In this document: piece after piece, positions 1,421 through 22,771 of the stretch
How positions within the stretch are numbered: position 1 is the first letter of the stretch
Layout of the letters: every line of letters starts with the position of its first letter
IMG/VR virus record: IMGVR_UViG_3300009161_000006
Coordinates: 1-60,984 of that record
Strand: one strand, 5' to 3'
From: a virus
Lineage: Duplodnaviria > Caudoviricetes
DNA: 60,984 nt
Program-made: the position numbers and the translations under genes
Notes under the pieces: model-generated
Told to the model about the DNA's origin: nothing
The model's input: only the letters and a program-made list of their open reading frames with translations
The model's database searches: none

Positions 1421-1438
1421 TAATAATTTAATTTTCAA

Positions 1439-1469: not shown

Positions 1470-1494
1470 AGTAACTAAATCAAATCAAATAATA

Positions 1495-2241: not shown

Positions 2242-2285
2242 TTAGTATATTTGTACTTTATTAACCCATTTAAACTTTTTAAACG

Positions 2286-2576
2286 ATGGAAAAATTTTTA
2301 GGAATTACAGTAACAGGTCAACAAGTACAAATAGTATCTGCAACAGGTATTGTATTAATTGAGCAAGACTCTACAACAACAGTTGGGATTCATTACAAAT
2401 CATCTACAGGTACAGATGTTGTAACAATTACACATGCTACAGCAGGAGCAGGTGATGAAACTATGCGTGATGCAATTCAAAATGCAGTTGTTGCTGCTTT
2501 GACAACATCGTGGACAAATGTTTTATACACTGTTGAAAATTTACCTTATGCAGTATCAAATATTTCTATAGCGTAA
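2286..2576 (+). CDS. Small putative structural/decoration protein
   Basis: Thr/Val-rich 96-aa ORF, preceded by TATATTTG (2246) and followed by a terminator. Confidence 0.5.
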   Translation: MEKFLGITVTGQQVQIVSATGIVLIEQDSTTTVGIHYKSSTGTDVVTITHATAGAGDETMRDAIQNAVVAALTTSWTNVLYTVENLPYAVSNISIA

Positions 2577-2597
2577 TATTAATTAATTTAGAAACAA

Positions 2598-2630
2598 AGA
2601 GGCGCTTTAATAGAGTGCCTTTTTTTTTAT
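2598..2630 (+). terminator. Intrinsic terminator
   Basis: GAGGCGCTTT-AAT-AGAGTGCCTT stem followed by a long T run. Confidence 0.7.
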
Positions 2631-2638
2631 TATCTTTG
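2631..2638 (+). promoter_or_regulatory. Bacteroidota primary-sigma -7 element TAnnTTTG. Other + copies: 2246, 9448, 10487, 42747, 43255, 45403, 46807, 48823, 52986, 59688. - strand copies: 30295-30302, 34645-34652, 42260-42267
   Basis: Matches to TAnnTTTG recur just upstream of gene starts on the coding strand; established Bacteroidota promoter consensus. Confidence 0.8.
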
Positions 2639-2653
2639 TAAAAAGAATAGCGT

Positions 2654-3643: not shown

Positions 3644-3653
3644 ATAGTAAAAT

Positions 3654-4577: not shown

Positions 4578-4578
4578 T

Positions 4579-7500: not shown

Positions 7501-9432
7501 GAGAGTTATAAAATTAGAGACTCAATAATTGGTAGAGAGTTTAATCTTGGGGAAAGAGTAACCTCAGTCTCTGCGCAAGACTACAAAGAAGCGCATAGGT
7601 TCTCGGATATTACTTATAGTGGGGTATATAACCCTGAGTCAAATCTAAATAAGCTTAATGAGTTTAATTTAGGTCTTCTAAACTATAAATATTTAGAGTC
7701 ATCTTTTGGGTATATCTATATATTAGATGGTAGAGAGACTGATGTTTTATGTATCCAAGAAGATAAGATATCGTATGTATTAGCAGGCAAGAATTTATTG
7801 TCAGATGCAGGTGCAGGGCGAGCGCTACTTGCTGTACCTGAAGTATTGGGTACTCAGATTGCAAGAACTGAAAAGTTTGGCATAAGCCACAACCCTGAAA
7901 GTTATGTTCAATGGGGTGCTGATAGATATTTCACTGATGTAAAAAGAGGCGCTGTTATACAGCTCCAAGGAGACTCAGCACAAAACGATAAGTTACAGGT
8001 GGTATCAGAGTTTGGTATGCGAACATGGTTTAGAGATGAATTTATCTATTCACAGACTACACAGAAACTTGGAGGATATGACCCGTATATGAATGAATAT
8101 GTTTTGACTAGCAATGACATTAGTATCCCAATAGTAACGGAGTGTTTTGATTGCGACCAAGACAATACATTTTCAATAGACAACTCTTCTAACTCAACGG
8201 ATAGAGAGATAAATTATTGTATTGAATTAAATGATTGTATTGGAATTGGAACTATTACCATAGCAACAACATCTATATCTTTAGGAGGAAGCTTTACTGT
8301 ATCAGCTACCTATGATGGAACAACAACTTCAACATTAATAACAAGTGTCGGAATAGATACTGTTAGTTATAATGTAAATAATCCGTCTGTTCTTACTCTT
8401 GAAATTAATATAATTATATCTGCAGGTTCAACAATTGGATTTGATATAAACAATGAATGTCAAGAATGTGAAAAAATAAAACTAATTGAGGTAGTAATTA
8501 CTGATAATAGCAATGCAGGATTTTTCATTCATAATCAATATAACTATACTGATGTAACAATACCTTATACATCTCCATTACAGAGCAATCAAGTTACATT
8601 TGCTTCAGGTACAGCTGTTCCACTTGTTTCATATTATAATGCAGCGGTAGGATTCCAAGGACAGGGTAGCTTCCCTTACCCCGGAGTAGATATGACACTA
8701 TATACAAATAAAATTGGGTTTGATAACTATGACTTTATTGACCCTCCGAATAGATTTTTATGGACAACCACAAATATTAATTATCCAAATACACCTGCAG
8801 CTATAGCAACACTACTATCAATAGCAAATGTTGTGACTCCAATAGTAACTGTTGGAAATCAGAACTCCGCAGTTTTTTCTGTGCCAAGCTTATTTGATAA
8901 TCTTTATTTGATTTGGGACTTAAGAAGTACCACTGAGGTTGAATTATGTTATAGCGAAGTGAGTTGTGATGTCGCTTGTCTCGAATGCTCGGTTTGTGAG
9001 TGCGGAACATGGTTGGTAGTAAATAATACCGGAGAGTCTTATTTTGGTGTTCAGTATGTTAATTGTGATGGACTTAATGCTGTTATTGGAGAGTTTGACC
9101 CTGTAAGTTATACGTTCCCTAGAGACGCAGGTATATTTATATGTGCTAGGGACTTCCTTATCCCTGAGCGAATCCCCGGATTTACATATACATATATAGG
9201 TTGCTATTGTTGTGCAGAATGTCAGTCTTATAGCATATTTAACTCGGGAGGAGAAGATATAGCATTCACAGGTGAACTTCTATGCGGTGGAGGCGCAACT
9301 ACGCTTAATTTCCTTGCAGGACAAACATATGAATACTGTATGTCTAGTGTTATCTCGTACTTTGATGTGAGTTTAGGTATTGACTATGTTGAAAATCTAA
9401 TATTTACCCCGATAGAATGTAATTGCGGTTAA
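4579..9432 (+). CDS. Tail stabilization / nozzle protein with Cys-rich C-terminal extension
   Basis: N-terminal FVAGKMNK..DER..P.GEY.DA.N and internal FAYRY, NRLMYGNY, FGISHNPES, GGYDPY motifs of podovirus stabilization proteins. Confidence 0.75.
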   Translation: MPKFSRNFVAGKMNKTFDERVVPNGEYIDAMNVRMGSTENSEFGVIENTKGNVPLTALKFLNTPLSVDARCIGAYEDGAMETVYWFVHDPNFPLGLTGKLDLLVSFNTNNSFLTYHVITIDNGGNINTTLNFNPKYLITGVNKIENLLFFTDNYNAPRVININRNYAVPSGAPLTDAGGIAAALLLEESLLVIKKPPTESPTVQLLNTVGQQNFLEERFISFAYRYLYADGEYSATSQWSDIAFAPNGFEVTVEAYLNEGMINSFNACKVTYYTGDSLVVGIDLLFKQSESNIIKIIEKQNKQDLGIPNNIYTSISFDNSKIFTTLPESELLRLYDNVPRFAQAQTLMGNRLMYGNYIEGYDLVTSLGNPVQFTYETALIQEVIGFEALLTSKQTSTYLIDGSHTVPFSILRIDFANLIPYASNLIAGASIGISIEFIHESFTGSPFLMGVTPNTFVSATFFLTSSYSSPYDLAQSVEFQDWIGTVANILPVYDPIPSNPTSCDGYTLTDRFNCLTPVNLAFNFEKRAAGINAVAEPIKIISSNLNSYIDLQIVATKYEQLTSPGTYGYEYYQIIDEFVTFSKVGQIRSLHSNRGYEVGIVYMDDFLRSSTALVSVDNTVYTPCSSSVNQNSIRVTIPTSQVAPYWATRYKFVIKPDQEGYQTVYSTLLYIDTANNSLYWFLLEGENQQKVEVGDRLIVKKDSNGATQECVYTTVLEKGSQAFPFPGVYMRLETINFAATIPSIPPYTDSNSGVKITRVYWSEPGGPPWTDIDVPAGSVIGIMVYTYRKGTFDCSEKEVNSSQSYVYFTATNDYNSLEDWFTFNTSTIMSALIALPSTGMSIVYMGSFNNSESAMNTFVTAGAAANIMRLYINRDPADNRLTFWMSGTVQCTVFSDSISRLGFKISRAPVSPDFVFETAPIDALPDVFFENNLSFGITSIGEHEGNVQNQDFLMGQPAIINTGFFNCFSFGNGVESYKIRDSIIGREFNLGERVTSVSAQDYKEAHRFSDITYSGVYNPESNLNKLNEFNLGLLNYKYLESSFGYIYILDGRETDVLCIQEDKISYVLAGKNLLSDAGAGRALLAVPEVLGTQIARTEKFGISHNPESYVQWGADRYFTDVKRGAVIQLQGDSAQNDKLQVVSEFGMRTWFRDEFIYSQTTQKLGGYDPYMNEYVLTSNDISIPIVTECFDCDQDNTFSIDNSSNSTDREINYCIELNDCIGIGTITIATTSISLGGSFTVSATYDGTTTSTLITSVGIDTVSYNVNNPSVLTLEINIIISAGSTIGFDINNECQECEKIKLIEVVITDNSNAGFFIHNQYNYTDVTIPYTSPLQSNQVTFASGTAVPLVSYYNAAVGFQGQGSFPYPGVDMTLYTNKIGFDNYDFIDPPNRFLWTTTNINYPNTPAAIATLLSIANVVTPIVTVGNQNSAVFSVPSLFDNLYLIWDLRSTTEVELCYSEVSCDVACLECSVCECGTWLVVNNTGESYFGVQYVNCDGLNAVIGEFDPVSYTFPRDAGIFICARDFLIPERIPGFTYTYIGCYCCAECQSYSIFNSGGEDIAFTGELLCGGGATTLNFLAGQTYEYCMSSVISYFDVSLGIDYVENLIFTPIECNCG

Positions 9433-9475
9433 GTAAAATAAAAATGTTAATTTTGCATAACTAATAAGCAATACT

Positions 9476-9658
9476 ATGCCGGCAACATATTTTTTAAATT
9501 CAGTAGATTTGGCAAGCGCTACATACATTTATAGTGACGCATCTATGTTATATGCAGCAGCAGAAGGGTACTATTCAGACGGCACCATTTGCAGGTATTG
9601 GTATCTTGACCTTGTTCTTGGATATTGGATATTAGAACCATTTACTTATTGTAAATAG
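9476..9658 (+). CDS. Small tail-associated protein
   Basis: 60-aa aromatic-rich ORF (EGYYSDG) downstream of a TAATTTTG promoter element. Confidence 0.5.
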   Translation: MPATYFLNSVDLASATYIYSDASMLYAAAEGYYSDGTICRYWYLDLVLGYWILEPFTYCK

Positions 9659-9660
9659 AC

Positions 9661-10479
9661 ATGTTTAAAACACTTACATATAGCCCAAATGCACAAGGAT
9701 GGCCTTCATTCTATTCTTATAATCCTGATTGGATGATAGGCATGAATAATTATTTCTATTCATTTAAAGGGGGTAATTTATATAGGCATAGCGTAAACAT
9801 TAAAAGAAACACGTTCTATACCACATGGTGCGCACAAAACGTACCACCACTAGACCCATTTACCCCAACAGGACTTACAAGTGTATTAAATGACTTACCT
9901 CTTGAGAATAAATTATTTAAGACAATGGACTTGGTAGGTGATGCACCTTGGTCTGCAACCTTAACTACTGACTTACAATATACAGGGTATATAGAGCAAG
10001 CATGGTTTGAAAGGAAAGAAGCGACTTGGTTTGCATTTGTAAGAAATGATGGTGCAATACCAATGGGTCCACAAGAGTATCCTTTAAGAAGTGTAAATGG
10101 AATTGGCAATAGTTTATCAGTTGTATTTGGTGTAGGTACTGCAACTATAAACTTCTCAATAACCCCTCTTATAGCAATAGGGAGCATAATAAGCATTGGT
10201 GACATTGTTTACTTTTCAGCAGGTGCAATAGGCGCAGGTATAGTAACTAGTGTTATTCAGAACTATCCTTTAGGAGACAACTATATTATTATTGATACCA
10301 CTCCTATATGGACCACTCCTATCCCTACTCAAACGGAGTATTTCTTATTTAGTAAAAACTCAGTTGCAGAGTCACATGGTGTACTTGGTCATTACTGTTT
10401 ATTTACTCTTTCAAATAGTTTTGATACAAAAATAGAATTGTTTTCAGCAGAATCAGAGTTAATGAAAAGTTACCCTTAA
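9661..10479 (+). CDS. Tail protein, probably the separately encoded C-terminal part of the stabilization protein
   Basis: TLTYS..GWPSFYSY.PD.M and NKLFKT motifs. Confidence 0.6.
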   Translation: MFKTLTYSPNAQGWPSFYSYNPDWMIGMNNYFYSFKGGNLYRHSVNIKRNTFYTTWCAQNVPPLDPFTPTGLTSVLNDLPLENKLFKTMDLVGDAPWSATLTTDLQYTGYIEQAWFERKEATWFAFVRNDGAIPMGPQEYPLRSVNGIGNSLSVVFGVGTATINFSITPLIAIGSIISIGDIVYFSAGAIGAGIVTSVIQNYPLGDNYIIIDTTPIWTTPIPTQTEYFLFSKNSVAESHGVLGHYCLFTLSNSFDTKIELFSAESELMKSYP

Positions 10480-10528
10480 TTTTTTATATCTTTGTAGTTA
10501 CTAAGAAAAATTACTAAAAAAATATAAC

Positions 10529-11296
10529 ATGGTAGGAGCAATAATAGGAATAGCATCAACTGTAGCGACAACAGCGATGTCTTTTGCCCAAGCAAATAAG
10601 CAAAAAAAATTACAGAAACAAGCAGAACAGGAAGCTGATAAAGCAATGTTCGCAGCTCGAAAGAGACTTGAGGTAAACTATATGGATGCATTATCCGTTC
10701 AAAAGGAGCCTTATGAGTTAGCGAGACAAGCAATGCTTGCTCAAGGAACACAGGCTACACAGGCAGGTCAAGAGTCTGAGAGAGGCGCTGCTGCAACTGC
10801 AGGACGAGTACAGATGGGGCAAAATGAAGCTCAAGGAGATATTAGAACAGCAATGGGCAAAGAGTTAACTGAGATTGAAAGATTAAAGGTTGCTGAAGAC
10901 GCTAGGCTAAGAGACTTAAATACACAACTAGATTTAGGCGAAGTTGAGGGTGCTCAATTGGCTGCTGCTAATGCTCAAGAAATGTCTGCTGCTGCTATGG
11001 AGCAAGGATTTGCAGGAGTTACAAGTGCAGCAACACAAGCGGCTAATTTGGTTCCTTTGTATGGGAAGCAAAAAACAGATACCGGTGGTTCAGGTGTCGT
11101 TGACACTAGAAATGCTGTGTTAAATCCAAAAGGAGTTCAATTAACGTCAACAGGTTCAAATATGCAATTTAATCCATTCGGAACAGGAATGCCTACTTTG
11201 AATCAAGACCAACAAAATCCATTTATGTATAATACTAACTTACAAAGTAATCCTATAAATCCTTTCTATCCTCAAATACAATTACCAATCCGATAA
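10529..11296 (+). CDS. Internal virion / ejection protein
   Basis: Hydrophobic Ala/Gly N-terminus then Ala/Gln-rich coiled coil; podovirus gene order. Confidence 0.55.
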   Translation: MVGAIIGIASTVATTAMSFAQANKQKKLQKQAEQEADKAMFAARKRLEVNYMDALSVQKEPYELARQAMLAQGTQATQAGQESERGAAATAGRVQMGQNEAQGDIRTAMGKELTEIERLKVAEDARLRDLNTQLDLGEVEGAQLAAANAQEMSAAAMEQGFAGVTSAATQAANLVPLYGKQKTDTGGSGVVDTRNAVLNPKGVQLTSTGSNMQFNPFGTGMPTLNQDQQNPFMYNTNLQSNPINPFYPQIQLPIR

Positions 11297-11309
11297 AACA
11301 AAATAAATA

Positions 11310-12812
11310 ATGGCAAAAACATTTTATAAATATCAAGAGCGTGACATTGACAGCCAAGTAAATTGGGCTGATATTGGTCTTGGTATGTCTGATATGATTA
11401 CAGACCAAGTCGCTGTAAGAAAAGCAAAGAAAGAGGCGTATGATGACGAGGTAAGGGCATTCAATCAATACTTAGATGAACACCCAACGGGAGATGATGA
11501 CAATTTAACTACATGGACATCTGCTTATTCATCGGATATGCAAAAGAAAATGTTAGATAATCAGAGGGCATTTAAAAATGGTATGATATCAGAAAGAGAT
11601 AATGTTATTTTTATGCAAAATGTTAAAAATGGAACAAGCACAATTTTTGATTTAGCTACAGAGTATCAAGCTGAGTATAAGGTGAAGATGGAAAGAATGA
11701 ACTCAACTGACCCATTAAATAAATCACAAGAAGCTGAGTCTTGGCTTATGGAACAAGCAGGGTCATATGATAACTATAAAACATCTAAGCCAATTATTGA
11801 CCCTAAAACAGGGTTGGTATTAATGAGCATGAAAAAAGCAGATGGTACATATGAAACCGTTTCTGCTGCTAATTTATCAAATAGAATAAAAGCAAAGTAT
11901 GACTACTTTGATTCAGATGGAGTTGCAACAAAAATTGAAGAGGGACTAGGAGACGAGATCGTTGGTGATTATGCAGCTGCAAAGAATAGATTGAAAACAG
12001 GTACCGTTACAGATACACAGGATAAGGCAATAAAAGAAGGTTTTGATAACGCATTAAAAAAGAGGATAGGCTCAGAATTAGTCAATCCAACATCAGTATC
12101 TTCAATACTAACAAACAATATATTGTTTGATGCCCAAGGAAATACTGTTGATTATAGCTTTACTTATGATAAGGCAGAGGCTGCAGCAGACCCATTTAAA
12201 ATATTAATGGTTGTCAAAGGAGGGGGAGACGGAATGCCAATCCCTGATTTCACAACAGAGAATGGTAAAAAACAACGAGAAGCAGCTCTTGAATATATGA
12301 CTGTGCAAACGATTGAAAAAATAGATAGAAAAGTTGGTAAGCAAGTTATTGCTGCTTTAGGAGATGCTCCTCCTGTTCAAAGACCATCTGATTGGTCTCT
12401 TGCAAATGCAGAGCAGAAAAAATTATTACTTGAAAAAGGCAGAAATGCAGGAGAGCAATTAGCAATTTTACTTACATCTCCAAATGCTAGTTTGGTACAA
12501 AATGCAGGAGCTAGTTTAAGTCAATTATATGGAGGAATATCAGGCCTTAATAAGACGGGGAAAGATATGAATATAACATTTGGAGGAAAGCAAAATAACT
12601 TTTCCGGGGCAGATGTAACTCCTCTCGCTTATGCGAAGTCGGTTTTAAATAGTCTTGGATTGACCGCTGATGAGCAAAGAGCGGCATTAACAACATTCCA
12701 ACAATATGCAGGGGATGCATTAAATGATAATAGTGCAACGGGAGTAGCAGCTCCAATTGAAACGGGGAAATATGACGAAGAGAAAAAGTTTAAATATTCT
12801 TGGGAGAAATAA
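11310..12812 (+). CDS. Internal virion / ejection protein
   Basis: 500-aa helical ORF between ejection genes. Confidence 0.5.
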   Translation: MAKTFYKYQERDIDSQVNWADIGLGMSDMITDQVAVRKAKKEAYDDEVRAFNQYLDEHPTGDDDNLTTWTSAYSSDMQKKMLDNQRAFKNGMISERDNVIFMQNVKNGTSTIFDLATEYQAEYKVKMERMNSTDPLNKSQEAESWLMEQAGSYDNYKTSKPIIDPKTGLVLMSMKKADGTYETVSAANLSNRIKAKYDYFDSDGVATKIEEGLGDEIVGDYAAAKNRLKTGTVTDTQDKAIKEGFDNALKKRIGSELVNPTSVSSILTNNILFDAQGNTVDYSFTYDKAEAAADPFKILMVVKGGGDGMPIPDFTTENGKKQREAALEYMTVQTIEKIDRKVGKQVIAALGDAPPVQRPSDWSLANAEQKKLLLEKGRNAGEQLAILLTSPNASLVQNAGASLSQLYGGISGLNKTGKDMNITFGGKQNNFSGADVTPLAYAKSVLNSLGLTADEQRAALTTFQQYAGDALNDNSATGVAAPIETGKYDEEKKFKYSWEK

Positions 12813-12838: not shown

Positions 12839-15800
12839 ATGAATGACCAAGCAATAAATGACGCATATCAAATGTTTTCGCAAGGCGGGTACAGTGGTTC
12901 TATTGACAATTTTAAGCAATTAATAGCATCTAATCCAAATGCGTTAAATGATTCTTATGAGATTTTTAAGTCGGGAGGTTATAGTGATGACATTGAATCA
13001 TTCAAGACGTTAATGGGTGTTTCAAATTCTTTTTCAAATCCTTTTATTAAAAAAAAAAGTCCCGGTGGGGTATCCATTTCGGCAGATGGTTCTTCGGAAT
13101 ATCTAACTAAAAACCAAATCGACAGAATTACCCAAATTGGCGCTGACCCATTGATTTTTGAGCTTGCAGCTAAACAGGCAGCAGAAGACAAAGAAAAAGC
13201 AAAGCAATTACAGGCTACAGGATTTCGAAAGGAAATGAAGGATGCAGAAGCTATTGAGCTTAGTGGAAAGGAACAGCCTTTAAGTAAGATATATGATGAA
13301 TATGATGATTTCTTTAATACTAAAAATCAACAGGCAACAGGTGTAAAAGCATTTATAGAGGGCCAAGATAGACCCTATGGTAGAAATGATTATAGTAAGA
13401 GTGTGTCTTTTGACCCCGGATTAGGTATAGCAGTAAACGATACTAGATATAGAGTAAAGGATGGCTTTTGGGAGCGATTAGTACAAGGGGATTCTAAATA
13501 TGAAAAGATAACAAATGCTTCAAGTATATCTGCTCTAAACAAAAGATACGATAGAGACTTATCAACTGATGTTGCTCCAATAGAAGTTAAGCCAAGTGTA
13601 ATAGACCCATTTCTTAGTGTTAATTCAGATTTTCTTTCTAAGACAGAAGAGGATGCTCAAACAGCTTTAGAAAACAAGTTTGGGGGCATGGGGTTTGAAT
13701 TTGAGCAAACAGGGTTTGGTACAGATTATATAAAGGTGACTCCTAAAAATGGCGCAGCGGCAATGACATTTTCATTTGATGAAAAATCAGGTGATGAGGC
13801 TGTTAGACTACAATCTTTTTTAAGAAACAATGCTTCATTTGAAAATGAGAATGCACTGTTGCCAACTATATTACAAAGTTTTATAGCAGACAATAGAGAT
13901 TTAAGCAAGAAACCGTATAGTTCAAATGAATATAAATTATTATTTGAAGAGCTAACTTATCTTCAAAAAAAAGAAGAGATATCAAGACGACAAAAAGAGG
14001 CATCGGGGTTTGCATTTTCTGACTATGGTATAGCAGGTTGGGCTGTTGGTTTAGTGTATGACACTGAAGAAACTAGAGAGAAGCTTGCGGAAAATGCAAA
14101 AATAATGCAAGATGATTTATACAATAGCGAAGAATGGAAGTTATTTAATACTGAGAAAAGTAAATTTGAACAACAGCAAGAAGATAGGTATTCACTACTG
14201 CTTGATGATTATGAAATAAAAAAACGAAACGGTGATTACGCAGGAGCGAGAGAGGCAAAGTTAGCGATTGAAAGTGGGTTTAGTAGAGATGTTATTGGAG
14301 ACAATGTTACAAATCTTTCAAACTCACAATATGACTTAATGAGCGCTAAGAATAACCTCGTTGCAAAGGAAACAAAATTACGAGAACAAGCATCAAAAGG
14401 TTTAATAACACAAGAACAATTTGATATTGGCGCAGAAGCTATTTTAGTAGAATCAAAAAAACTAGCTATTTCCGCAGAGAGTGTTGTTTCAAACCAAAAA
14501 AAAATGAACGCTCTTGCGGGAGTATATGCTACAGAAAAAGCAAAGTATGGTAGTTTTGGGAGTAACTTAGTTAATGCATTTGTGGTTGACGCAGCCGAAA
14601 TAATAGATAAATTTAACTATATAAGAAGAGGGGGTGTTGACGTGAACAATATGATAGGAGAAGGTATTATAGGCGCCCAATCTAGGATTATAACTCCGCA
14701 ACAAAAAGAATATTATAAAAATAAAGGATATAACGAAGAACAAATAAAAAACATAAGGATTAATCAAGAAGACTTGGCAGCTAGAAAGGATTTTAAAAAA
14801 TCAATTATACAGAGTTTTGGATCTGATTTAACAACTGAAGAGTCAAAGTCACAGCTTGGGTTTGTTGAAAATGCTTTAGTTGGTGTAGCAGCATCATTGC
14901 CTTCAATGCTAACAAGGGCTATACCTGTCGTGGGACAAGTAGCAGCATTTGCAAGTATGGCAAATATGTCATACAATGCGATTGAAGAAGAGATGCTTTC
15001 AGACCCTGACTTTGAAACGACAACAAAAGGAGAAAGGGCTTTAGTGGCTGTTCCATATGCAGCTGTTATGGGGTACCTTGAAAACCTTGGTATAAGTAAA
15101 ATGACAAAAGGACAATCAGCTCTTTTAGGAAAATATATTTTAGGAAATATGGCAAAGGCTCTTCCAAAAAAATTGGGTAGAGAAGTAATTGAAAATATAG
15201 TAAATAAAGAAGTTAAAAGTTTAGTTGGTAAAGGAGTATTAAAAGTTGTTGGTGGTACATTAGCAGAAGGAGAGACAGGAGCAATGCAAACATTAGTTGC
15301 CGACATTGGAATAAAAAAAGCATATAACTCTATAAGAGCTGCTTATACCGGTGAAGATTTAACAGAGCTAACAGGAGGCGAAGCATTTGGCACTCCTCAG
15401 TCTTTTTCAGAAGGTGCATTAGCAGTTGGTGAAGGAGCATTAGCAGAGGCAATAGGTGGTTTCGCTATGTCTACAGTTATGGTAGGAGCGCAGGGATTGG
15501 CTACAGGTAAAATATCTTTATATAACCAAGATGACTTAAAGTTTTTTGAGGACTTTTCTTCGGATGAAGAATTTAAGAAGCTTATTGTGACAAAATTAAA
15601 GACAGAAATGCTAGAAGGAAGAATGTCAAAGAGACAGGCGCAAGCTGCACTAAATGACATTGACTTAGTAGCGGGTGTATTTAATTCAATAGATGAGAAC
15701 CTACCTCAACAAGCAAAGCTTGAAGCCTTTAATTTAATAAATGAAAAACGAAGATTATTAATAGAGATTGAAGGTAAAGACCCGGCCTTAAGTAAAAAGA

Positions 15801-18800
15801 GAAATGATAGAATAGCTGAAATAAATACAAGGCTAGAGGAGCTACCTTCTCTTGTACAAGAAGATAACTTAGCAGATAGAGCGAGTGATATAGAATATGC
15901 ACTTGGAAGAGGAAGAGGCACATCAAAAACCGTAAGGATTGATGGTAAAAGGGTAAGTAGAGAAGAGGCAGAGACAGAGTTACAAACAATAATCACTAAA
16001 ATAGAAGAAAATGCCATTCAAAAGCAAACAGCAAGTGAAGTACTTGTACAGCCAACAACCACAATTGGCGAAGAAGTGGTCCAAGGAGAACCCACAACAG
16101 AACTTGAAGTCATTACCGAAGAAGGTCAAAAAAGAAAAGAAGAGTTAGAGTTAGCTTTATCGCAAGAAAGGAATGATAAAGGAACAATAACGGTTGGAGA
16201 TGAGATTCAAATTAGAAGAGCAGCAGAGCTAGAATTAGAGCAGTTAAATAAGTTAGCCCCTTTAACGCAAGAAGTGGTCCAAGGAGAACCCCAAACAGAA
16301 CTTGAAGTCATTACCAAAGAAGGTGAAGCCCAAGCACAAAGGTTCAAGGATAAAGAATATTTAACAGCTGAAGAGACATTAAATTTTAGCATAAATAACG
16401 CTAAGGAAAACATAGAAAATAGAATATTAAGATTTCAAAAATCAGAAGACCCCTCAAGCGAAGATTGGATAAAGTCGGAGAAAGAAGAATTGAATCAGTT
16501 AAACGAAAACCCATTAGCATATTTTGAATCTAAATTACAGCAAGAAATTACACGTAAGACACCTATACCTGAAAGAATAGGGTATTTTGAAATGATTATT
16601 AATGAGTTCAAAGCCGTAGAAAATGCTCAAGCCGCACCAACACAAGAATTAGCTCCTGTAACGCAAGAATTGGTCTCAGAGGAGGCAACACCACAAGCAG
16701 AGAATTTAACTATAAGAGAGGAGATGTCACTTGCAGCTGAAAAAGCTCAAGGAAAAAAGGGTAAAGCGCCTAGGGCAGCTAGAGTGCGAAAAGCCCCTGT
16801 AGTAACAGCACCTGCTCTTGAAGTTGAAGCAGCACCAATTGTTGTAGAGCCTACGCAGGAAGCTGTAGTAGCACCTGTAGTAACGGCACCTGTAACTGAG
16901 GCTAAGGAAGGCGCACCTACTAAGTTTTCGTGGGATAAAATTAAGGAGTATACGAGTGAAGTAATTAGAAGCATGAGACAACTTCAATTTTCTAAATTAA
17001 ACCCTTTACTTGAACTTAAAAAACCAAGCGCAGCTCAAATAATAGAGATAAAAGCTCTTCAAGCAAAAATAAAATCTGCAGATGCAGTATTAAATGCTAG
17101 AGAAAATAAAATAAAAGAGGACGAGAAGAAAGCTGAGAAGGGAGAACCTACTGATAAAAGCCCAAGGGTAAGTGGTGTCGACCAAAATGGTAAGCCTGCT
17201 GAGTTTGTTGTAGTTGTTAATGAAAAGAAACAAACAGTAAAAGTACAGCTTAAAAAAAGAGGAGACTCAGAATTAGCAAGGCAAAAAATAGAGTCTGATT
17301 TAAAAATACAAACTGACGATAAAGGAAGAAAGTTTGTTGAGACTCAAAATAAATCAAGGGTCTATATTGATGAGAAAGTTACACCACCTAAAGCTGTAGA
17401 GTTAACTGCATTTGGAGTTCCGGTAAGTACAAAACAAGAGTATAGTAAAGAAAATCCAAAAATAATAGAAAATGAAAATGATGCTATTGAAATAGAAAAA
17501 ATAAATAAAGATTTATATACAGAAAAAATTAGCAATCTAGATATAATTAAAGAAGGTGGTAAATGGGTTGTAAGAACACAAACTGAAGGACGCGAAGAGT
17601 TTACAGGTAAAACATTAAAAGAAGCTAAAGATTATCTTGCGAATCGTAATTTAGAAACAAGGGTCGTTGGATTTAAAGAAGCGAAAGCTCCTGTAACTGA
17701 GGTTAAAGCAGAAGCGCCAAAGGTTGAGGCTGTAGTTGAAACTAAAGCAGAACCTATAGTTGAACCTAAAGCAGAACCTGTTAAGAAGCCAACGGCAAAA
17801 GCTGAACCTGTAGTTTTAAATTTTAATGTAAAATCTACTACTAGAAATGGAATGGAAATTATTATCACTGATGACAATTCTTTAAGGATGGGTGATGAAG
17901 GTCAAGAGTTAAGTAAATTAAGAAGATATGGTAAAACTAAGCACTATATTAATGATGGTATACTTGGTGTTATAATTGAAGGTTTTTCCATGGATGGAAG
18001 AGAGGGAGGACGTACCATTGTAAATGTTAAAGTTCCAAATGGTTTTAATGAAACTATTTTTGAAGAGCTTGTAAAAGGAATTAATTATCCTGCTATGACT
18101 ACAGTTGCAGAAACAGAAAGAGTATTAGCAGAAATTAAAGATGCAATTCAAAAATCAATAATTGCTCCCGCTACAGCTACTCAAGCAACAACAGAAACTA
18201 CAAAAAAATCAACAGTAACGACTGAAGATAGAATGGGTGCTATTAATAGCATAAAAGAAGAGATAGAAGCAATAAATAAGGAAATAAAAGAAGCAAAAGA
18301 AAAGGCTAGAAAAGCTGTAAATGAAATTGAAGCAAAAATTCTTGATACTAAAAATGAAAATAAAAAAGAAGAGTTACAATTTGATATAGAAGAGATTGAA
18401 ACTCAACTTGAAGAAGACCTAGATGGACTTAAAGATGACTTAGACCGACAAATAGGAATGTTGAAAGAAGAAGTTGAGTCACTTAAAGATTTAGACCTTG
18501 AAAAACCTGAGAATAAAAAGACACTATTAAGTTATATAGATGGTGCTATTGCTGCACTCAATAGTTTAAATAAACTAACATACGCAAAACTTGATGCAGG
18601 AGTTACATTAGGAACATTGAAACTTATTTTAAAGGGAATACGTCAGATAGTTATAAAAACTAATGATTTTAATGTTGCTGTTAGAGCAATGGCAACTAAA
18701 TATAAAAGTAAGCATAAAAATGAAAACATAACCATTGATGAGTTTATTGAAGAAATTAATGATTATTTAGATTCAACGTATGTTGACCCACAATCTTATG

Positions 18801-21800
18801 AAGAGTCATTAGATAAAGATATTGATAAATTTACTACTGAAATTAAAAATGCAATAAGACAAGCTCAATCACAATCAAAAACCTTAAGAGAAAAAGCAGC
18901 TGCTAAAATTAAGGACATGCTCAAGGGTAAGTTTAAAAGTATATCAGCTGTTCACATGAGGTCAATTATGACAAGGCTTGTTAGTGTTAACGTGGAGAAT
19001 CAAACTCAGTATGATAAGTTCTTAGAATACGTTGAGAAAGTAATTGAGATTACAAACTATGATGCCAAGGTTAGAGAGGCAAATGTTAAAAGGAAAAAAG
19101 CTAAAGATAATACAATAGGCAATAACCCAAAACTTGGGGACCTTTCCCTTGACTTGCTTGGTTCACTGTCACGAATGTTGAACATCAATCCAAAGCTAAT
19201 ATCAAAAGAAGTTTTTGATTCTTATTACAACATAGTTGATGACCTTTCAAAAAGAACTACCATTTTATCTCCGGGAGAAAGAGCAGACCTAAATGAAAAG
19301 GTAAATGAAATTTTTGACAGCATTGAGCAAAATGAAGAGATGCTACCTAATTTAAAAGATGCGTATGATAACTATGCAGATAAGGTTGTAAAAAATGGAG
19401 TTGTAAATTATGCAAAGACATTGACTAAGATGCTAGAAGATGGTGTCATCAATAACAATGAATTTACTTTAATGAAAAAGTACAAGTCAAAGATAGTAGA
19501 TGCTAAGGTAAAAGTGAAGATGACTGAGCAAGAGATTGCTGATGAAAAAGCAGAGTTAATCAATGAGATAACAAATACTGCAATAACATTAGACTCTATT
19601 GTTGGTGATGAGTTTAGATTAGAAAGAGAGTTGGCAAAAAGATTAGCTAAACTTTTAACTAAAAAGTCACTTGAAAATTTAGATAATAAAGAGTTAAAGG
19701 ATTTAATTAAAATACTTGATAATATAAATAATGGGTTTGTATCTAAGTCTACTCAGCAAATGGTAGAGAAGTTAAACTCAAAAGAAAATGCCCCATTATT
19801 AGAAAAAAGTATTCCAAAATCTGTAAGGGGTATATTTAAAAGAATAAGTCAACGCATAAGGGACACTACGACACGAGATAAGTATGGTGTTAATGTAACA
19901 CCACTGTTTAATATAGATGAGCAGTTTGGTGACTTTAAAAATAAAAACATATTTAACTCTGTATTTAACCAATCAGCAGTAAGCCAACAACAATACCAAT
20001 CTGAAGTATCAGAAATCCAAGGTAAATTAGTAAAAGCAGAGTCTGCCATAGCATCTTCGTTTGATAGAAATGGAAATAAAATAGTACTATCTAAATTTAA
20101 AATGATGGTATATATGATGCAACTTGAACACGACTCAAATCCAAATAGTCAAAAAGGTGATAAAAGACAAGTACATCAAGCAATGGAGACTTTGGATGCA
20201 ACAATTAAGTTTGCAGAAACAAATAAAAAGAAAAGCAGATATACCAAAGAGGATATTGACCAAATGAAAGCTATAAAGGAAGAGTTTGGAAAAGAAACTG
20301 AAGAGTTTGAAGAAGATGGTAAGACTAAAAAGAAAATAATAGATATAGATAAGTTGTATAACTCTTTTAATAAAGCTGAAAAAAATGCGCTTAAAGTTTT
20401 TGATGAAGTAAATTCTTTAATGACAAAGAAATCCACCTATACAGCAACTGTAATAAATGGTAATAAGATAACTCCTTTAAAAAATTATATTTACTATAAT
20501 ACAATCTCTGACCCAAGTACAAGTGCAGAACAGGCGACAAATTTAATTAACAATATAAATAATAATATGAAGCCGGGCACTGAATCTAAAAACCTTCAGG
20601 AAAGAACCGGAAATGTTAGTCCTGTTAACCTAGACCCTTTCTTTGCTGTAAATAGTAGTGCTAAGTCAGTACTTATTAACTACCATATGACAGAGCCAAT
20701 AAGGACAGCTAGAAAAACACTTTTAAATGCAAGAAAAATACTAGAGAACAATAAAAAAGAAAAAATAGATGTTGGGGAACAATTTGATATTCTTTCAGTT
20801 ATTGAAGAAGCATACGAAACAGCAACTAGAGATTTACTTGAAAGAAATTTCGCTCAATCAAGTGCTACTCTCGAATACTTAACAAAGGCAGGATATAGAG
20901 CTATGCTTGGAAGTGTAACAAGGTCCACTGCCGAGTTAGTATCAAACGCAGCGTTTGTTAGTATAAACAATCCAAAGGACATGGCCGCAGGGTTTAAGTA
21001 TAGAGGTATAGCACACTCAGGTAGAGGTAAAAATATATTAACAAATTTAAAAAGTAAGGTAACATCAAGAAATTATCCTCAAGGTGGTCTTAGCAGTAAT
21101 TATGTAGATTTAAGTTCTTTTACAGATAGAACTACTAAAAATGGAAAGACAAGGTCAAAAATAGTCAATGGTGTCACACAAGTTTATGACTATACTGCGG
21201 GGGCTTGGGTTAACCTTGTTGAAACAGTAGCAGATAATCTAATATCAAGACCTGACCAAATTGTAATGAAGCAACTTTATTTTGGTACATTCTCTCGTGA
21301 ATTCAAAAAAGAAACAGGTATTGAGCCTGACTTTGATAAAATTGAAGCGAATGATGAAGAGTATATGGATAAATATAAAGACGCTTTAGAAAAAGCGACA
21401 GATAAAGCCGATAGTCAAACCGTAACTGCAGGGTCAAGTATGAACGCTTATATGGGTTCTTTGCAAAATATTGTAAGAAAAGATGACAATACTCCAAAAA
21501 AAATATTTAAAACATTCAATCAATTTATGAATAGATTTACTATTCAAGAATATATTACAGCAAGAAAAGGTGTTAATGCATTAATAGGGAGGGGAGGTAT
21601 GACTGAAGCAGAAGGCATCCAAGTTTTAGCAGCAGTTTCTGCAAGGATGACATTATATTTAACTCTTGGAAAAGTATTCTCAGAAGCACTAATGTATTTA
21701 GGTGGTGTAGCATTTGGATATGGAGACGATGATGAAGATGAAGATGAAAAAACACTTTTACAAACACTATATCAATCAGCAGTATCATCTGCAACAACAT

Positions 21801-22771
21801 TATTCTTTGGTAGAAACTTTGGTAACGCCGTTAGGGCATTTGAAAATGTAGGTATAGAGGAATTAAATAAATTATATGGCGAAGATATTGGTCTTAGAAA
21901 TGGAGAATATGACCCATTTAAAGACGCAGTACAATATAACCAATTCTCAAAGGCTGATGAAATACCTGATGTTCTTGCCCTTATGGCAGGTCCATTAGGC
22001 CCTGTAATTAATGCAGGTACACTTGGTATGAAACTAGCATTTAAAGAAGCTCCAACGGAAGATAGAGCAATTGAAACAAGGAGAAAGGAGTGGTATAGAT
22101 TAGGATTAGAAGCGGCAGGGTCTGTTGGACTTGTGCCTTTTTATAGAGATGTACGAAAAGTAACAATGGATTGGGTGTATGATGAATTAAAAACAGAACT
22201 AAAAGAAGATGCTGAGAAAAAAGAAATAACAGAAGCAGAAGATGCATCTACTTTAGAAACAAAAACAAATACACTAAATAGAATGAGGGGTACCTATAAA
22301 GATGAAACAAGTAGAAGCATAATAGATTATGAATTAAAAAAATTAAACGACCCTGAATTTAGGAAAGAAGAGAATAAGAAGGAAGACGATGAGAAAACAA
22401 GATTGGCAAAGAAATATGGATACGAATCAATGACTGAATTTGAGTATGATGACAAGGAAAAGTATGACAAAGTATTTGGTGATGACTCTCCTTATGGAAA
22501 GAGAATGGCTCCAATAGCAAAAATACGACGAGAACTAAATGCTAGAATAAAAGCTGATAAATTTGGAAAGCCTTATAATCCAACAGAGAGTTCTGCAACG
22601 CCACTAACGCCTAAAGAAGAATATGATAAAAGAGTAAAAGAATCATTGGGTAAAAAAGAATATAATAAAAAAGTAAAAGAATCATCTGAATATGAAGGAG
22701 GTGAATATGGAGGCAGCGGTTACGGAGGAAGTGGTTACGGGGGCAGCGGTTACGGAGGTAGCGGTTATTAA
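12839..22771 (+). CDS. Giant (3310 aa) internal virion / DNA ejection protein
   Basis: Last gene of the + strand virion module; coiled coils, Ala/Gly hydrophobic segments, Pro/Glu/Ala linkers; no convincing RNA polymerase motif. Confidence 0.65.
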   Translation: MNDQAINDAYQMFSQGGYSGSIDNFKQLIASNPNALNDSYEIFKSGGYSDDIESFKTLMGVSNSFSNPFIKKKSPGGVSISADGSSEYLTKNQIDRITQIGADPLIFELAAKQAAEDKEKAKQLQATGFRKEMKDAEAIELSGKEQPLSKIYDEYDDFFNTKNQQATGVKAFIEGQDRPYGRNDYSKSVSFDPGLGIAVNDTRYRVKDGFWERLVQGDSKYEKITNASSISALNKRYDRDLSTDVAPIEVKPSVIDPFLSVNSDFLSKTEEDAQTALENKFGGMGFEFEQTGFGTDYIKVTPKNGAAAMTFSFDEKSGDEAVRLQSFLRNNASFENENALLPTILQSFIADNRDLSKKPYSSNEYKLLFEELTYLQKKEEISRRQKEASGFAFSDYGIAGWAVGLVYDTEETREKLAENAKIMQDDLYNSEEWKLFNTEKSKFEQQQEDRYSLLLDDYEIKKRNGDYAGAREAKLAIESGFSRDVIGDNVTNLSNSQYDLMSAKNNLVAKETKLREQASKGLITQEQFDIGAEAILVESKKLAISAESVVSNQKKMNALAGVYATEKAKYGSFGSNLVNAFVVDAAEIIDKFNYIRRGGVDVNNMIGEGIIGAQSRIITPQQKEYYKNKGYNEEQIKNIRINQEDLAARKDFKKSIIQSFGSDLTTEESKSQLGFVENALVGVAASLPSMLTRAIPVVGQVAAFASMANMSYNAIEEEMLSDPDFETTTKGERALVAVPYAAVMGYLENLGISKMTKGQSALLGKYILGNMAKALPKKLGREVIENIVNKEVKSLVGKGVLKVVGGTLAEGETGAMQTLVADIGIKKAYNSIRAAYTGEDLTELTGGEAFGTPQSFSEGALAVGEGALAEAIGGFAMSTVMVGAQGLATGKISLYNQDDLKFFEDFSSDEEFKKLIVTKLKTEMLEGRMSKRQAQAALNDIDLVAGVFNSIDENLPQQAKLEAFNLINEKRRLLIEIEGKDPALSKKRNDRIAEINTRLEELPSLVQEDNLADRASDIEYALGRGRGTSKTVRIDGKRVSREEAETELQTIITKIEENAIQKQTASEVLVQPTTTIGEEVVQGEPTTELEVITEEGQKRKEELELALSQERNDKGTITVGDEIQIRRAAELELEQLNKLAPLTQEVVQGEPQTELEVITKEGEAQAQRFKDKEYLTAEETLNFSINNAKENIENRILRFQKSEDPSSEDWIKSEKEELNQLNENPLAYFESKLQQEITRKTPIPERIGYFEMIINEFKAVENAQAAPTQELAPVTQELVSEEATPQAENLTIREEMSLAAEKAQGKKGKAPRAARVRKAPVVTAPALEVEAAPIVVEPTQEAVVAPVVTAPVTEAKEGAPTKFSWDKIKEYTSEVIRSMRQLQFSKLNPLLELKKPSAAQIIEIKALQAKIKSADAVLNARENKIKEDEKKAEKGEPTDKSPRVSGVDQNGKPAEFVVVVNEKKQTVKVQLKKRGDSELARQKIESDLKIQTDDKGRKFVETQNKSRVYIDEKVTPPKAVELTAFGVPVSTKQEYSKENPKIIENENDAIEIEKINKDLYTEKISNLDIIKEGGKWVVRTQTEGREEFTGKTLKEAKDYLANRNLETRVVGFKEAKAPVTEVKAEAPKVEAVVETKAEPIVEPKAEPVKKPTAKAEPVVLNFNVKSTTRNGMEIIITDDNSLRMGDEGQELSKLRRYGKTKHYINDGILGVIIEGFSMDGREGGRTIVNVKVPNGFNETIFEELVKGINYPAMTTVAETERVLAEIKDAIQKSIIAPATATQATTETTKKSTVTTEDRMGAINSIKEEIEAINKEIKEAKEKARKAVNEIEAKILDTKNENKKEELQFDIEEIETQLEEDLDGLKDDLDRQIGMLKEEVESLKDLDLEKPENKKTLLSYIDGAIAALNSLNKLTYAKLDAGVTLGTLKLILKGIRQIVIKTNDFNVAVRAMATKYKSKHKNENITIDEFIEEINDYLDSTYVDPQSYEESLDKDIDKFTTEIKNAIRQAQSQSKTLREKAAAKIKDMLKGKFKSISAVHMRSIMTRLVSVNVENQTQYDKFLEYVEKVIEITNYDAKVREANVKRKKAKDNTIGNNPKLGDLSLDLLGSLSRMLNINPKLISKEVFDSYYNIVDDLSKRTTILSPGERADLNEKVNEIFDSIEQNEEMLPNLKDAYDNYADKVVKNGVVNYAKTLTKMLEDGVINNNEFTLMKKYKSKIVDAKVKVKMTEQEIADEKAELINEITNTAITLDSIVGDEFRLERELAKRLAKLLTKKSLENLDNKELKDLIKILDNINNGFVSKSTQQMVEKLNSKENAPLLEKSIPKSVRGIFKRISQRIRDTTTRDKYGVNVTPLFNIDEQFGDFKNKNIFNSVFNQSAVSQQQYQSEVSEIQGKLVKAESAIASSFDRNGNKIVLSKFKMMVYMMQLEHDSNPNSQKGDKRQVHQAMETLDATIKFAETNKKKSRYTKEDIDQMKAIKEEFGKETEEFEEDGKTKKKIIDIDKLYNSFNKAEKNALKVFDEVNSLMTKKSTYTATVINGNKITPLKNYIYYNTISDPSTSAEQATNLINNINNNMKPGTESKNLQERTGNVSPVNLDPFFAVNSSAKSVLINYHMTEPIRTARKTLLNARKILENNKKEKIDVGEQFDILSVIEEAYETATRDLLERNFAQSSATLEYLTKAGYRAMLGSVTRSTAELVSNAAFVSINNPKDMAAGFKYRGIAHSGRGKNILTNLKSKVTSRNYPQGGLSSNYVDLSSFTDRTTKNGKTRSKIVNGVTQVYDYTAGAWVNLVETVADNLISRPDQIVMKQLYFGTFSREFKKETGIEPDFDKIEANDEEYMDKYKDALEKATDKADSQTVTAGSSMNAYMGSLQNIVRKDDNTPKKIFKTFNQFMNRFTIQEYITARKGVNALIGRGGMTEAEGIQVLAAVSARMTLYLTLGKVFSEALMYLGGVAFGYGDDDEDEDEKTLLQTLYQSAVSSATTLFFGRNFGNAVRAFENVGIEELNKLYGEDIGLRNGEYDPFKDAVQYNQFSKADEIPDVLALMAGPLGPVINAGTLGMKLAFKEAPTEDRAIETRRKEWYRLGLEAAGSVGLVPFYRDVRKVTMDWVYDELKTELKEDAEKKEITEAEDASTLETKTNTLNRMRGTYKDETSRSIIDYELKKLNDPEFRKEENKKEDDEKTRLAKKYGYESMTEFEYDDKEKYDKVFGDDSPYGKRMAPIAKIRRELNARIKADKFGKPYNPTESSATPLTPKEEYDKRVKESLGKKEYNKKVKESSEYEGGEYGGSGYGGSGYGGSGYGGSGY
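16011..16148 (+). CDS. Nested +1-frame small basic protein MPFKSKQQVKYLYSQQPQLAKKWSKENPQQNLKSLPKKVKKEKKS
   Basis: 45-codon ORF with A-rich leader; resembles the small phage MPFKS..Q..YL....P..AKKW family (recalled, not searched). Confidence 0.55.
   Translation: MPFKSKQQVKYLYSQQPQLAKKWSKENPQQNLKSLPKKVKKEKKS
16071..16324 (+). repeat. 56-bp direct repeat (16071-16126 and 16269-16324), 53/56 identical
   Basis: AAGAAGTGGTCCAAGGAGAACCC..AACAGAACTTGAAGTCATTACC.AAGAAGGT twice. Confidence 0.9.
22706..22768 (+). repeat. 15-bp tandem coding repeat encoding (YGGSG)x4 at the giant protein C-terminus
   Basis: TAYGGNGGNAGYGGT units. Confidence 0.9.

What the first reader, a model, noticed from the sequence alone, without database searches (positions are those of the whole stretch)
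16011..16148. Hidden small basic gene nested in the +1 frame of the giant ejection gene
Seen: a 45-aa ORF, MPFKSKQQVKYLYSQQPQLAKKWSKENP..., with an A-rich leader, entirely inside the 3310-aa ORF. It starts where the host protein becomes low-complexity linker (ENAIQKQTASEV). Recalled knowledge: MPFKS..Q...L....P..AK.W proteins occur as free-standing small phage genes. Inference: the giant gene extended through, or captured, this gene, giving true dual coding.
Basis: partly seen in the sequence, partly recalled or inferred. Interest (0 to 1): 0.7.

Follow-up and report, generated by a model that had tools for sequence, protein, structure and literature searches.

The report
Conserved small gene inside giant gene
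A 45-codon gene for a small basic protein really is hidden in a second reading frame of this phage's 3310-codon virion gene, and it, not the giant protein, is what evolution preserves on that stretch of DNA.

Summary
The ORF at 16011..16148 (+) lies in the +1 frame of the 3310-aa ORF 12839..22771. Its length is unremarkable: 74% of 1000 codon shuffles give an ATG ORF this long in an alternative frame. Its sequence is what matters. It belongs to a large, almost purely viral family (phrog_1375, function unknown; 4071 representative clusters). The family occurs as free-standing genes, often beside portal and scaffold genes. It also occurs, always in this phase, nested in giant virion genes or in the 5' part of the scaffold-position gene. 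Among 31 otherwise unalignable giant genes, the only conserved nucleotides are window 16010-16126. There the giant frame's wobble position varies least. OLGenie-style dN/dS is 0.33 for the small frame and 1.2 for the giant frame. It is 0.09 against 6.3 in six close relatives; a flanking control gives host 0.28. The start region is A-rich and unstructured. Translation was not shown and the function is unknown. The island also sits exactly at a module-swap boundary of the giant genes. Verdict: an unannotated embedded gene.

The parts
16011..16148 (+). Embedded small gene: 45 codons plus stop; basic protein (pI 10.3, net charge about +10.5, 13 Lys), member of the MPFKS / phrog_1375 family
   Evidence: Small-frame dN/dS is 0.33 (32 sequences) and 0.09 (6 close relatives).
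12839..22771 (+). Host gene: 3310-aa giant ORF of the virion module. The small gene lies in its +1 frame at host codons 1058-1103.
   Evidence: The homologous giant 'structural protein' of elemo phages carries the same nested ORF.
16010..16126 (+). Island of nucleotide conservation, the only stretch alignable among 31 giant genes. In the host frame it reads as an acidic linker (pI 4.3, charge about -6) with no detectable amino-acid constraint.
   Evidence: pairwise difference at b1/b2/b3 drops from about 0.6-0.75 in the flanks to near 0 at many b2/b3 positions, and b1 (the small gene's third position) varies most.
15981..16010 (+). A-rich, unstructured leader of the embedded gene, with a +1-frame TAG two codons before the ATG
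   Evidence: Mean 50-nt MFE over 30 nested loci is -2.2 kcal/mol at the start against about -5 to -7 elsewhere. The window's own value is -0.4, among the 5.9% least structured windows of the giant gene.
16071..16126 (+). Copy 1 of a 56-bp direct repeat (3' half of the small gene's conserved core)
   Evidence: 53 of 56 bases identical to copy 2. Also.
16269..16324 (+). Copy 2 of the repeat. In the +1 frame it reads as the C-terminal half of the peptide, preceded by stops and without the N-terminal half.
   Evidence: Relative L086 and one metagenome contig that skips 16130-16355 lack the duplication.

Best explanation
16011..16148 is a real protein-coding gene embedded out of frame (+1) in the giant virion gene. 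It encodes a 45-aa, lysine-rich protein of a large phage-specific family (phrog_1375). The family's defining features are an N-terminus MPFKS-x-x-Q, a conserved Pro17 and Ala20, and a conserved Leu-Pro before a Lys-rich tail. Shown: on these ~120 nt, purifying selection acts on the small frame. The giant frame is only kept open (Phe3 is always TTC when nested, because TTT would create TAA in the host frame) and otherwise drifts as an acidic linker. Inferred: the small gene is the older partner. It was a free-standing gene of the head/packaging region that neighbouring genes grew across. In one group the scaffold-position gene extended its 5' end over it. In this phage's group a giant virion gene reads through it. 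Inferred: it is translated by internal initiation at its own ATG from the late structural mRNA, helped by the A-rich, structure-free leader. Least certain (about 0.3): the protein is a small basic accessory or adaptor of head assembly or of internal virion proteins. Its N-terminal about 45 residues would serve as a docking module, also used as an N-terminal tag on longer proteins.
For: Family: 24 of 27 candidates at E <= 1, best 6.8e-15. 4071 representative clusters at E <= 1e-3 and 644 at <= 1e-10. 51 of 70 members hit phrog_1375. Architectures, in 82 classified loci (83 sources minus L079, whose ORF has 248 aa; the loci are the best 80 of 365 plus the window and 2 elemo loci, so not a census): 34 nested in ORFs of 700 aa or more, 18 nested near the 5' end of 385-440-aa ORFs, 4 in short open stretches, 26 free-standing. 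All 52 giant and mid cases share one phase. Phe3 codon: free-standing 13 TTT and 13 TTC; nested 53 of 53 TTC. Codon-position variability in the nested-giant set is 0.28/0.21/0.44 for small-frame positions 1/2/3, so the host wobble varies least. The island coincides with the ORF. dN/dS: small 0.33 (bootstrap 0.24-0.45), host 1.20 (0.83-1.83) in 32 giant-nested sequences. Small 0.51 (0.37-0.71), host 0.98 in 16 scaffold-nested sequences. In six close relatives, per pair: 7.53 differences that change only the giant protein, 2.37 that change both, 0.17 that change only the small protein. In the upstream control domain, host dN/dS is 0.28 and the sham +1 frame 0.59. Unbiased relatives: 5 of 5 keep the ORF. 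Start signals. Some nested copies have AGGAGG at SD distance (L017, L024). Context of free-standing copies: portal-small-scaffold-major head in L039; portal-like, 99 aa, then small in L056. The upstream or nearby gene is a portal in L061, L067 and L037. The scaffold-position host gene is homologous to window 59717..60829 (E 1e-47). Fusions: the module sits at residue 1 of longer proteins with Gly-rich hydrophobic, DUF5661 or P-loop parts.
Against: There is no expression evidence of any kind: no RNA run holds the stretch, and no proteomics or ribosome data were available. P0001 alone matches phrog_1375 only at E = 0.0061. The locus sets were found with the peptide pattern or ranked by similarity, so class proportions are biased. 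Sequences are related, so bootstrap intervals over columns overstate independence. The alignment for one search was built on the small peptide. Genomic context is not uniform: two free-standing copies lie beside ribonucleotide reductase (L058, L072), two beside terminase, and a Streptomyces phage copy lies between a 'peptidase' and a holin. The head-assembly role is therefore weak. A 45-aa tree needs 5 changes for the 'giant' label, and well-supported branches force at least 2. A single capture is therefore not established. One representative protein (P0122, 1075 aa) carries the peptide in frame at the C-terminus of a giant-type N-module. No structure or complex prediction could be run.
Confidence: 0.82

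Rival explanations
1. The island is conserved for a reason other than the +1 protein: a host-frame peptide motif such as a maturation cleavage or targeting site ([D/N]-A-[I/V]-Q-[K/E]-Q...), or a DNA/RNA element such as a recombination site. On this view the +1 ORF is a by-product in the nested copies.
For: The host-frame motif recurs. The elemo giant gene has QEDAVQKQ twice, and at the upstream copy the +1 reading is only a 10-codon stub. L087 and L089 carry degenerate upstream copies. The island lies at a module boundary, so a DNA-level role in exchange is possible alongside coding.
Against: Host-frame dN/dS in the island is about 1 or higher, while the small frame is 0.09-0.51. The host wobble position is the least variable. 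The host motif A-[ILVF]-Q is forced by the codons of M-P-F-K, which can be read directly from the sequence. Free-standing homologues keep the peptide with 1-17 stops in the host frame. There is no Rfam match, and the fold z-score is -1.1.
Confidence: 0.06
2. The basic peptide is not made from its own start. It would be made by a programmed shift of ribosomes from the giant frame into +1, giving a truncated N-module of about 1100 aa with a basic tail, by analogy with frameshift-derived short forms (recalled).
For: P0122 (1075 aa) ends with the peptide in frame after a giant-type N-module.
Against: In the window the +1 frame is closed by TAG two codons before the ATG. It is closed within 1-14 codons in 32 of 33 giant-nested loci (L060 left out; L040: 30 codons). 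The ATG and the residue-1 position are family features found without imposing them: 116 of 150 profile hits. The start region is unstructured. P0122 is 1 of 150 listed hits, and a sequencing indel was not excluded.
Confidence: 0.06
3. It is a chance open frame in an AT-rich giant gene, with no function.
For: A 45-aa alternative-frame ORF is expected by length: 73.6% of shuffles. The +1 stop density of 0.099 gives P = 0.009 per position.
Against: All the comparative evidence.
Confidence: 0.01

Closest known systems
PHROG family phrog_1375 (function unknown)
   Same: 51 of 70 family members, including the window peptide (E 0.0061), match it. These are small basic phage proteins.
   Different: The PHROG entry carries no function. 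The window copy scores weakly on its own.
Unannotated nested ORF in the giant 'structural protein' gene of Flavobacterium elemo phages (Elemovirus)
   Same: It has the same phase, the same N-terminus and the same KKWSKE.P...SLP.KVKK features, with 42 aa. The island is about 70% identical in DNA, while the giant proteins share only about 25% identity in their best region.
   Different: It has an insertion (PKWDC) and two Cys. In the stretches fetched from GenBank only the giant CDS is annotated over it.
Lambda Rz/Rz1 spanin genes (embedded, overlapped and separated architectures)
   Same: A small gene lies wholly inside a larger one in the +1 frame, and relatives show embedded, partly overlapping and separate layouts. 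Source: PMC6139136, of which only the search listing and the start of the abstract were seen. That Rz1 is in the +1 frame of Rz is recalled.
   Different: The small protein here has no Cys, no lipobox and no signal peptide. It lies in a virion gene, not a lysis cassette. It is not a spanin.
Overprinted genes of small phages and viruses (e.g. microvirus genes within genes; recalled) and the overprinting literature (PMC8227390, PMC3494269: search listing only)
   Same: Two proteins are read from the same nucleotides, with asymmetric constraint.
   Different: Here the embedded small gene appears to be the old, widely distributed one. The long host frame is the unconstrained newcomer on the shared stretch. 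The genome is a 61-kb tailed-phage genome, not a size-limited one.
Streptomyces phage FlowerPower gene 48 (72-aa hypothetical protein)
   Same: It is an annotated, free-standing member in a cultured phage: 63% identity over 27 residues to a free-standing family member, E 4e-4.
   Different: It is longer, sits between a 'peptidase' and a holin, and comes from an actinobacterial host.

Membership tests
MPFKS small-protein family (phrog_1375) | Profile or HMM match | tested here: met
   P0001 matches phrog_1375 at E 0.0061, weak on its own. phmmer-type hits reach 6.8e-15 in 5.8e9 proteins. 51 of 70 aligned members hit phrog_1375, best 3.6e-7.
MPFKS small-protein family (phrog_1375) | Module at the extreme N-terminus, starting M-P-F-K-S, with Q8, P17, A20 and L35-P36 conserved | tested here: met
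   Invariant and near-invariant columns are, though those sets were found with a pattern that requires MPFKS. Independent check: 116 of 150 profile hits start MPFKS at residue 1.
MPFKS small-protein family (phrog_1375) | Small size (about 40-70 aa) and a Lys-rich tail | tested here: met
   45 aa, 13 Lys, pI 10.3. 75 of 150 profile hits are 80 aa or shorter.
Embedded out-of-frame overlapping gene | Lies wholly inside a longer ORF on the same strand in another frame, with both frames kept open in relatives | tested here: met
   52 giant or mid cases in one phase; 53 of 53 nested Phe3 codons are TTC; 5 of 5.
Embedded out-of-frame overlapping gene | Purifying selection specific to the embedded frame | tested here: met
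   dNN/dNS is 0.33 and 0.51 and 0.09. The control region behaves the opposite way.
Embedded out-of-frame overlapping gene | The embedded frame is translated | not testable with these tools
   No RNA holder was listed, and no ribosome or peptide data exist. The only support is indirect: an A-rich, unstructured start.
Two-component spanin (o-spanin such as Rz1) | Lipoprotein signal with a lipobox Cys | tested here: not met
   The 45-aa product has no Cys and no hydrophobic signal.
Programmed-frameshift product | The alternative frame is open upstream, so shifted ribosomes can enter it, and no own start is needed | tested here: not met
   TAG lies two codons before the ATG in the window. The +1 frame is closed within 1-14 codons in 32 of 33 giant-nested loci.
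Any Pfam, NCBIfam or PADLOC family | HMM match | tested here: not met
   P0001 has no match at E <= 10 in Pfam or NCBIfam. No Pfam family is shared by more than 3 of 70 members, best E 0.0068. PADLOC gives none for P0001.

The most novel reading that the evidence does not exclude
The embedded gene doubles as a portable junction for building giant virion proteins. It is the only strongly conserved DNA shared by otherwise unrelated giant genes. It could therefore act as the homology patch at which downstream 'cargo' modules are swapped between phages. On this reading the giant genes arose by fusing an N-terminal module to variable downstream genes, reading through an old intergenic small gene in the wrong frame. 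Supporting observations: in 20 of 666 pairs of giant loci the 300 aa upstream are similar (up to 89% identity) while the 300 aa downstream are unrelated, and no pair shows the reverse. DNA identity falls from about 63-100% to about 30% at +120 nt after the ATG in 8 of 8 pairs examined. In 4 of 4 metagenome runs, extra contigs match only about 16000-16130, with unrelated sequence on both sides. Duplications and deletions cluster at the island.
Probability: 0.35. Interest if true: 0.75.

Novelty: new member of a known kind. Interest (0 to 1): 0.62.

Why it matters
Gene callers do not report genes nested inside longer genes. In the elemo records fetched here only the giant CDS is annotated over this gene. 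Yet the family has thousands of representative clusters, so a common phage protein is being missed whenever it is nested. The case is also unusually clean for teaching and for method testing. The long frame is the passenger and the 45-codon frame is the one under selection, the reverse of the usual assumption. Frame-specific statistics separate the two without ambiguity. If the junction idea holds, it would give a concrete mechanism for the mosaic evolution of giant virion proteins. Culturable elemo phages on Flavobacterium sp. BAL314 offer a direct experimental system.

Tried and rejected
Length as evidence was rejected: 45 aa is expected by chance.

Pfam, NCBIfam and PADLOC gave nothing usable.

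The PDB profile search gave only designed repeat proteins, through many weak repeated matches (per-stretch i-Evalue in the hundreds). I treat these as spurious.

Rfam gave no match, the RNA fold z-score was -1.1, and sigma-70 promoter-like sites were at shuffle level. None gives support for an RNA or promoter element. Bacteroidetes-type promoters are not covered by that scan.

No RNA holder was listed for the stretch, so expression could not be examined. Contigs of 4 runs were laid. The table of variant letters was truncated ('64 more not shown'), so no strain-level SNP test was made from it.

A scan with the giant gene's C-terminal part found only one locus, on the same contig as L087. A distance-unbiased census of giant genes was therefore not obtained.

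tblastn of short peptides against cultured phages gave few hits, mostly non-significant.

The antisense frame was rejected as the conserved one. By my count from the table, a minus-strand frame is open across the small ORF in only about half of the giant-nested loci, and not in the window.

The spanin idea was rejected: there is no Cys.

The tree of 70 peptides is poorly resolved (52 columns; bootstrap not settled). I use it only to say that a single origin of nesting is neither shown nor excluded.

One 'free' locus (L071) has a 197-codon open stretch in the other phase across the small gene. L060, labelled giant, is GC-rich and doubtful. I left L060 out of the selection tests and did not follow either up.

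Literature: 'MPFKSK' and three 7-letter variants gave 0 papers. 'Elemovirus' gave 5 papers in the listing, none opened. In PMC7077304 I read the passages found; it has no elemo content. Supplements were not consulted.
Full report
**What is there.** The window is a complete 60,984-bp virus record with direct terminal repeats. Its + strand carries:
- terminase large subunit (54931..57177), portal (57174..59669) and a 370-aa gene in the scaffold position (59717..60829);
- at the other end of the record, a run of virion structural genes (11..12812);
- then a 3310-aa ORF at 12839..22771.

The reported ORF, 16011..16148, ATG, 45 aa, lies inside that ORF one base out of phase. The product has 13 Lys, no Arg, no Cys, pI 10.3 and a net charge of about +10.5. 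The host-frame reading of the same bases is acidic (pI 4.3).

**Is it more than chance?** Not by length. Codon shuffles of the giant gene give an alternative-frame ATG ORF of 45 aa or more in 73.6% of 1000 trials, and the real gene has others of 47 and 45 aa. By sequence, clearly yes.
- A word-seeded search of 5.8 billion proteins returned 24 small proteins (41-54 aa) at E <= 1 among 27 candidates, the best at 6.8e-15.
- A profile of 70 members found 4071 representative clusters at E <= 1e-3 among 1.84 billion proteins.
- 116 of the best 150 begin MPFKS at residue 1, and half of them are 80 aa or shorter.
- 51 of 70 members match phrog_1375, function unknown. No Pfam or NCBIfam family matches.
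- In one genome for each of 185,579 prokaryote species, only 17 loci were confirmed, all on MAG contigs. The family therefore looks essentially viral.

**Three architectures, one phase.** I scanned IMG/VR with the pattern MPFKS[KEQ]xQ. These loci, the window and two elemo loci made 83 sources. 82 were classified; L079 was left out because its ORF has 248 aa.
- 34 have the small ORF nested in an ORF of 700 aa or more, up to 3498 aa. One of these, L060, is GC-rich and doubtful.
- 18 have it nested 70-200 nt into a 385-440-aa acidic ORF.
- 4 lie in short open stretches.
- 26 are free-standing, with 1-17 stops in the would-be host frame.

These proportions reflect ranking by similarity and are not a census. 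All 52 giant and mid cases use the same phase. The 17 MAG loci show the same three layouts: 4 giant, 3 mid, 2 short, 8 free.

The 385-440-aa host is the homologue of the window's scaffold-position gene (E 1e-47), but with an added acidic N-terminal extension that covers the small gene. Free-standing copies sit directly after the portal and before the scaffold and major head genes in L039, and after a portal-like gene and a 99-aa gene in L056. Portal genes neighbour L061, L067 and L037. Other contexts also occur: terminase (L052, L034), ribonucleotide reductase (L058, L072), and 'peptidase'/holin in Streptomyces phage FlowerPower.

**Which frame is selected?**
- Phe3 is TTT in 13 and TTC in 13 free-standing copies, but TTC in 53 of 53 nested ones. 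TTT would put TAA in the host frame.
- In 32 distinct giant-nested copies, pairwise differences at small-frame positions 1/2/3 are 0.28/0.21/0.44. Position 2 is the host's wobble, and it varies least.
- I aligned 31 giant genes by their own frame. All three codon positions are saturated (about 0.6-0.75) on both sides. Conservation appears only at window 16010-16126. blastn of 2.5 kb against cultured phages likewise matched only 15991-16136, at 70% identity.
- An OLGenie-style count gives small-frame dN/dS 0.33 (0.24-0.45) and host-frame 1.20 (0.83-1.83). For the scaffold-nested set the values are 0.51 and 0.98.

The cleanest test uses relatives found without the peptide, through the giant gene's upstream domain. 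All 5 keep an ATG-started +1 ORF of 43-51 codons. In four it begins MPFKS. In one it begins MPRES, after a deletion that joined a degenerate upstream copy to the island. Across these five and the window, a pair differs on average by:
- 7.53 changes that alter only the giant protein,
- 2.37 changes that alter both proteins,
- 0.17 changes that alter only the small protein.

This gives small dN/dS 0.09. In the 118-codon upstream control, the host frame has dN/dS 0.28 and a sham +1 frame 0.59.

**Caveats on these tests.** The sequences are related. The alignment was built on the small peptide. Distances are uncorrected.

**How it is probably expressed (inferred).**
- The +1 frame is closed two codons before the ATG in the window. 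It is closed within 1-14 codons in 32 of 33 giant-nested loci. Entry by long-range frameshifting is therefore unlikely.
- The 15 nt before the ATG are 67% A (98.7th percentile in the gene). Some nested copies carry AGGAGG at SD distance.
- Over 30 nested loci, the mean folding energy of 50-nt windows rises to -2.2 kcal/mol at the start, against about -5 to -7 elsewhere.
- No RNA family, unusual fold or above-chance promoter match was found.
- No RNA data exist for the stretch.

**What it does (weakly inferred).** The family is unannotated. Three observations suggest a small basic accessory or docking module linked to head assembly or internal virion proteins:
- It is frequently placed next to portal and scaffold genes.
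- It is embedded in two different late virion genes.
- It appears as an N-terminal module on longer proteins with Gly-rich hydrophobic stretches, DUF5661 or a P-loop domain.

The non-head contexts argue for caution. I give this role about 0.3.

**Direction of evolution (inferred).** Free-standing forms occur in contigs of 33-61% GC and make up most profile hits. Nested forms are a subset whose host frame shows no amino-acid constraint. The peptide tree cannot say how many times this happened.

**A boundary of mosaicism.**
- Among 37 giant loci (666 pairs), 20 pairs have similar upstream 300 aa (150 bits or more, up to 89% identity) but unrelated downstream 300 aa. No pair shows the reverse, 7 are similar on both sides and 513 on neither.
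- DNA identity falls to about 30% at +120 nt from the ATG in 8 of 8 pairs examined.
- In 4 of 4 metagenome runs, depth spikes at 16008-16109, from contigs whose sequence is unrelated before about 15997-16006 and after about 16126-16133.
- Rearrangements cluster here. There is a 56-bp repeat in the window that L086 lacks. One contig skips 16130-16355. L087 and L089 carry degenerate upstream copies. Elemo has a 10-codon stub.

Whether the island promotes exchange or merely marks a domain boundary is open.

**Comparison and novelty.** The architecture is that of embedded phage genes such as Rz1 in Rz. That is recalled; the embedded, overlapped and separated layouts come from PMC6139136, of which only the listing was seen. 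The protein is not a spanin: it has no Cys. Searches for the motif in 8.4 million papers and preprints found nothing. In the elemo stretches fetched, only the giant CDS is annotated over the nested ORF. I file it as a new, unannotated member of a known kind, with two unusual features: the long frame is the unconstrained one, and the gene sits at a module junction.

Noticed in passing
window 16071-16126 and 16269-16324: A 56-bp direct repeat (53 of 56 identical) duplicates the 3' half of the small gene's core. In the +1 frame, copy 2 reads as the peptide's C-terminal half, preceded by stops. The 90%-similar relative L086 has no duplication and a 51-aa small ORF. One metagenome contig skips 16130-16355.
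   Followed up: partly
window 22690-22768: The giant protein ends in a run of Gly-Gly-Ser-Gly-Tyr repeats. Its meaning is unknown.
   Followed up: no
L001 3187-3219 (elemo phage): A second, decayed copy of the start of the small gene (10 codons, then a stop) lies 396 nt upstream of the intact one. It has the identical host-frame motif QEDAVQKQ.
   Followed up: partly
L087, L088, L089 (IMG/VR contigs): L087 and L089 carry a degenerate extra copy of the island about 90-100 codons upstream. In L088, a deletion between the two copies produced a hybrid start reading MPRES instead of MPFKS, with the ORF still open.
   Followed up: partly
protein P0122 (1075 aa, metagenome): The small peptide is in frame at the C-terminus of a giant-type N-terminal module. 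This is either a natural split or fused form, or an assembly indel. Its contig could not be fetched.
   Followed up: no
window 59717-60829: The window's scaffold-position gene is homologous (E 1e-47) to the 385-440-aa genes that host the small gene in other phages. It lacks their acidic N-terminal extension and has no nested copy.
   Followed up: yes
proteins P0029, P0169, P0075, P0049, P0070, P0113, P0137: The 45-residue module occurs at the N-terminus of longer proteins with unrelated C-terminal parts: DUF5661, a P-loop (AAA_18-like, below cutoff), and Gly/Ala-rich hydrophobic stretches.
   Followed up: partly
L071 908-1498: One 'free-standing' copy is covered by a 197-codon open stretch in the other alternative phase (+2). 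This may be a different overlap arrangement.
   Followed up: no
window 14800-15500 (giant protein about aa 690-870): The giant protein's N-terminal module contains Gly/Ala-rich hydrophobic segments. They resemble those in the longer proteins that carry the small module at their N-terminus. This rests on visual comparison only.
   Followed up: no
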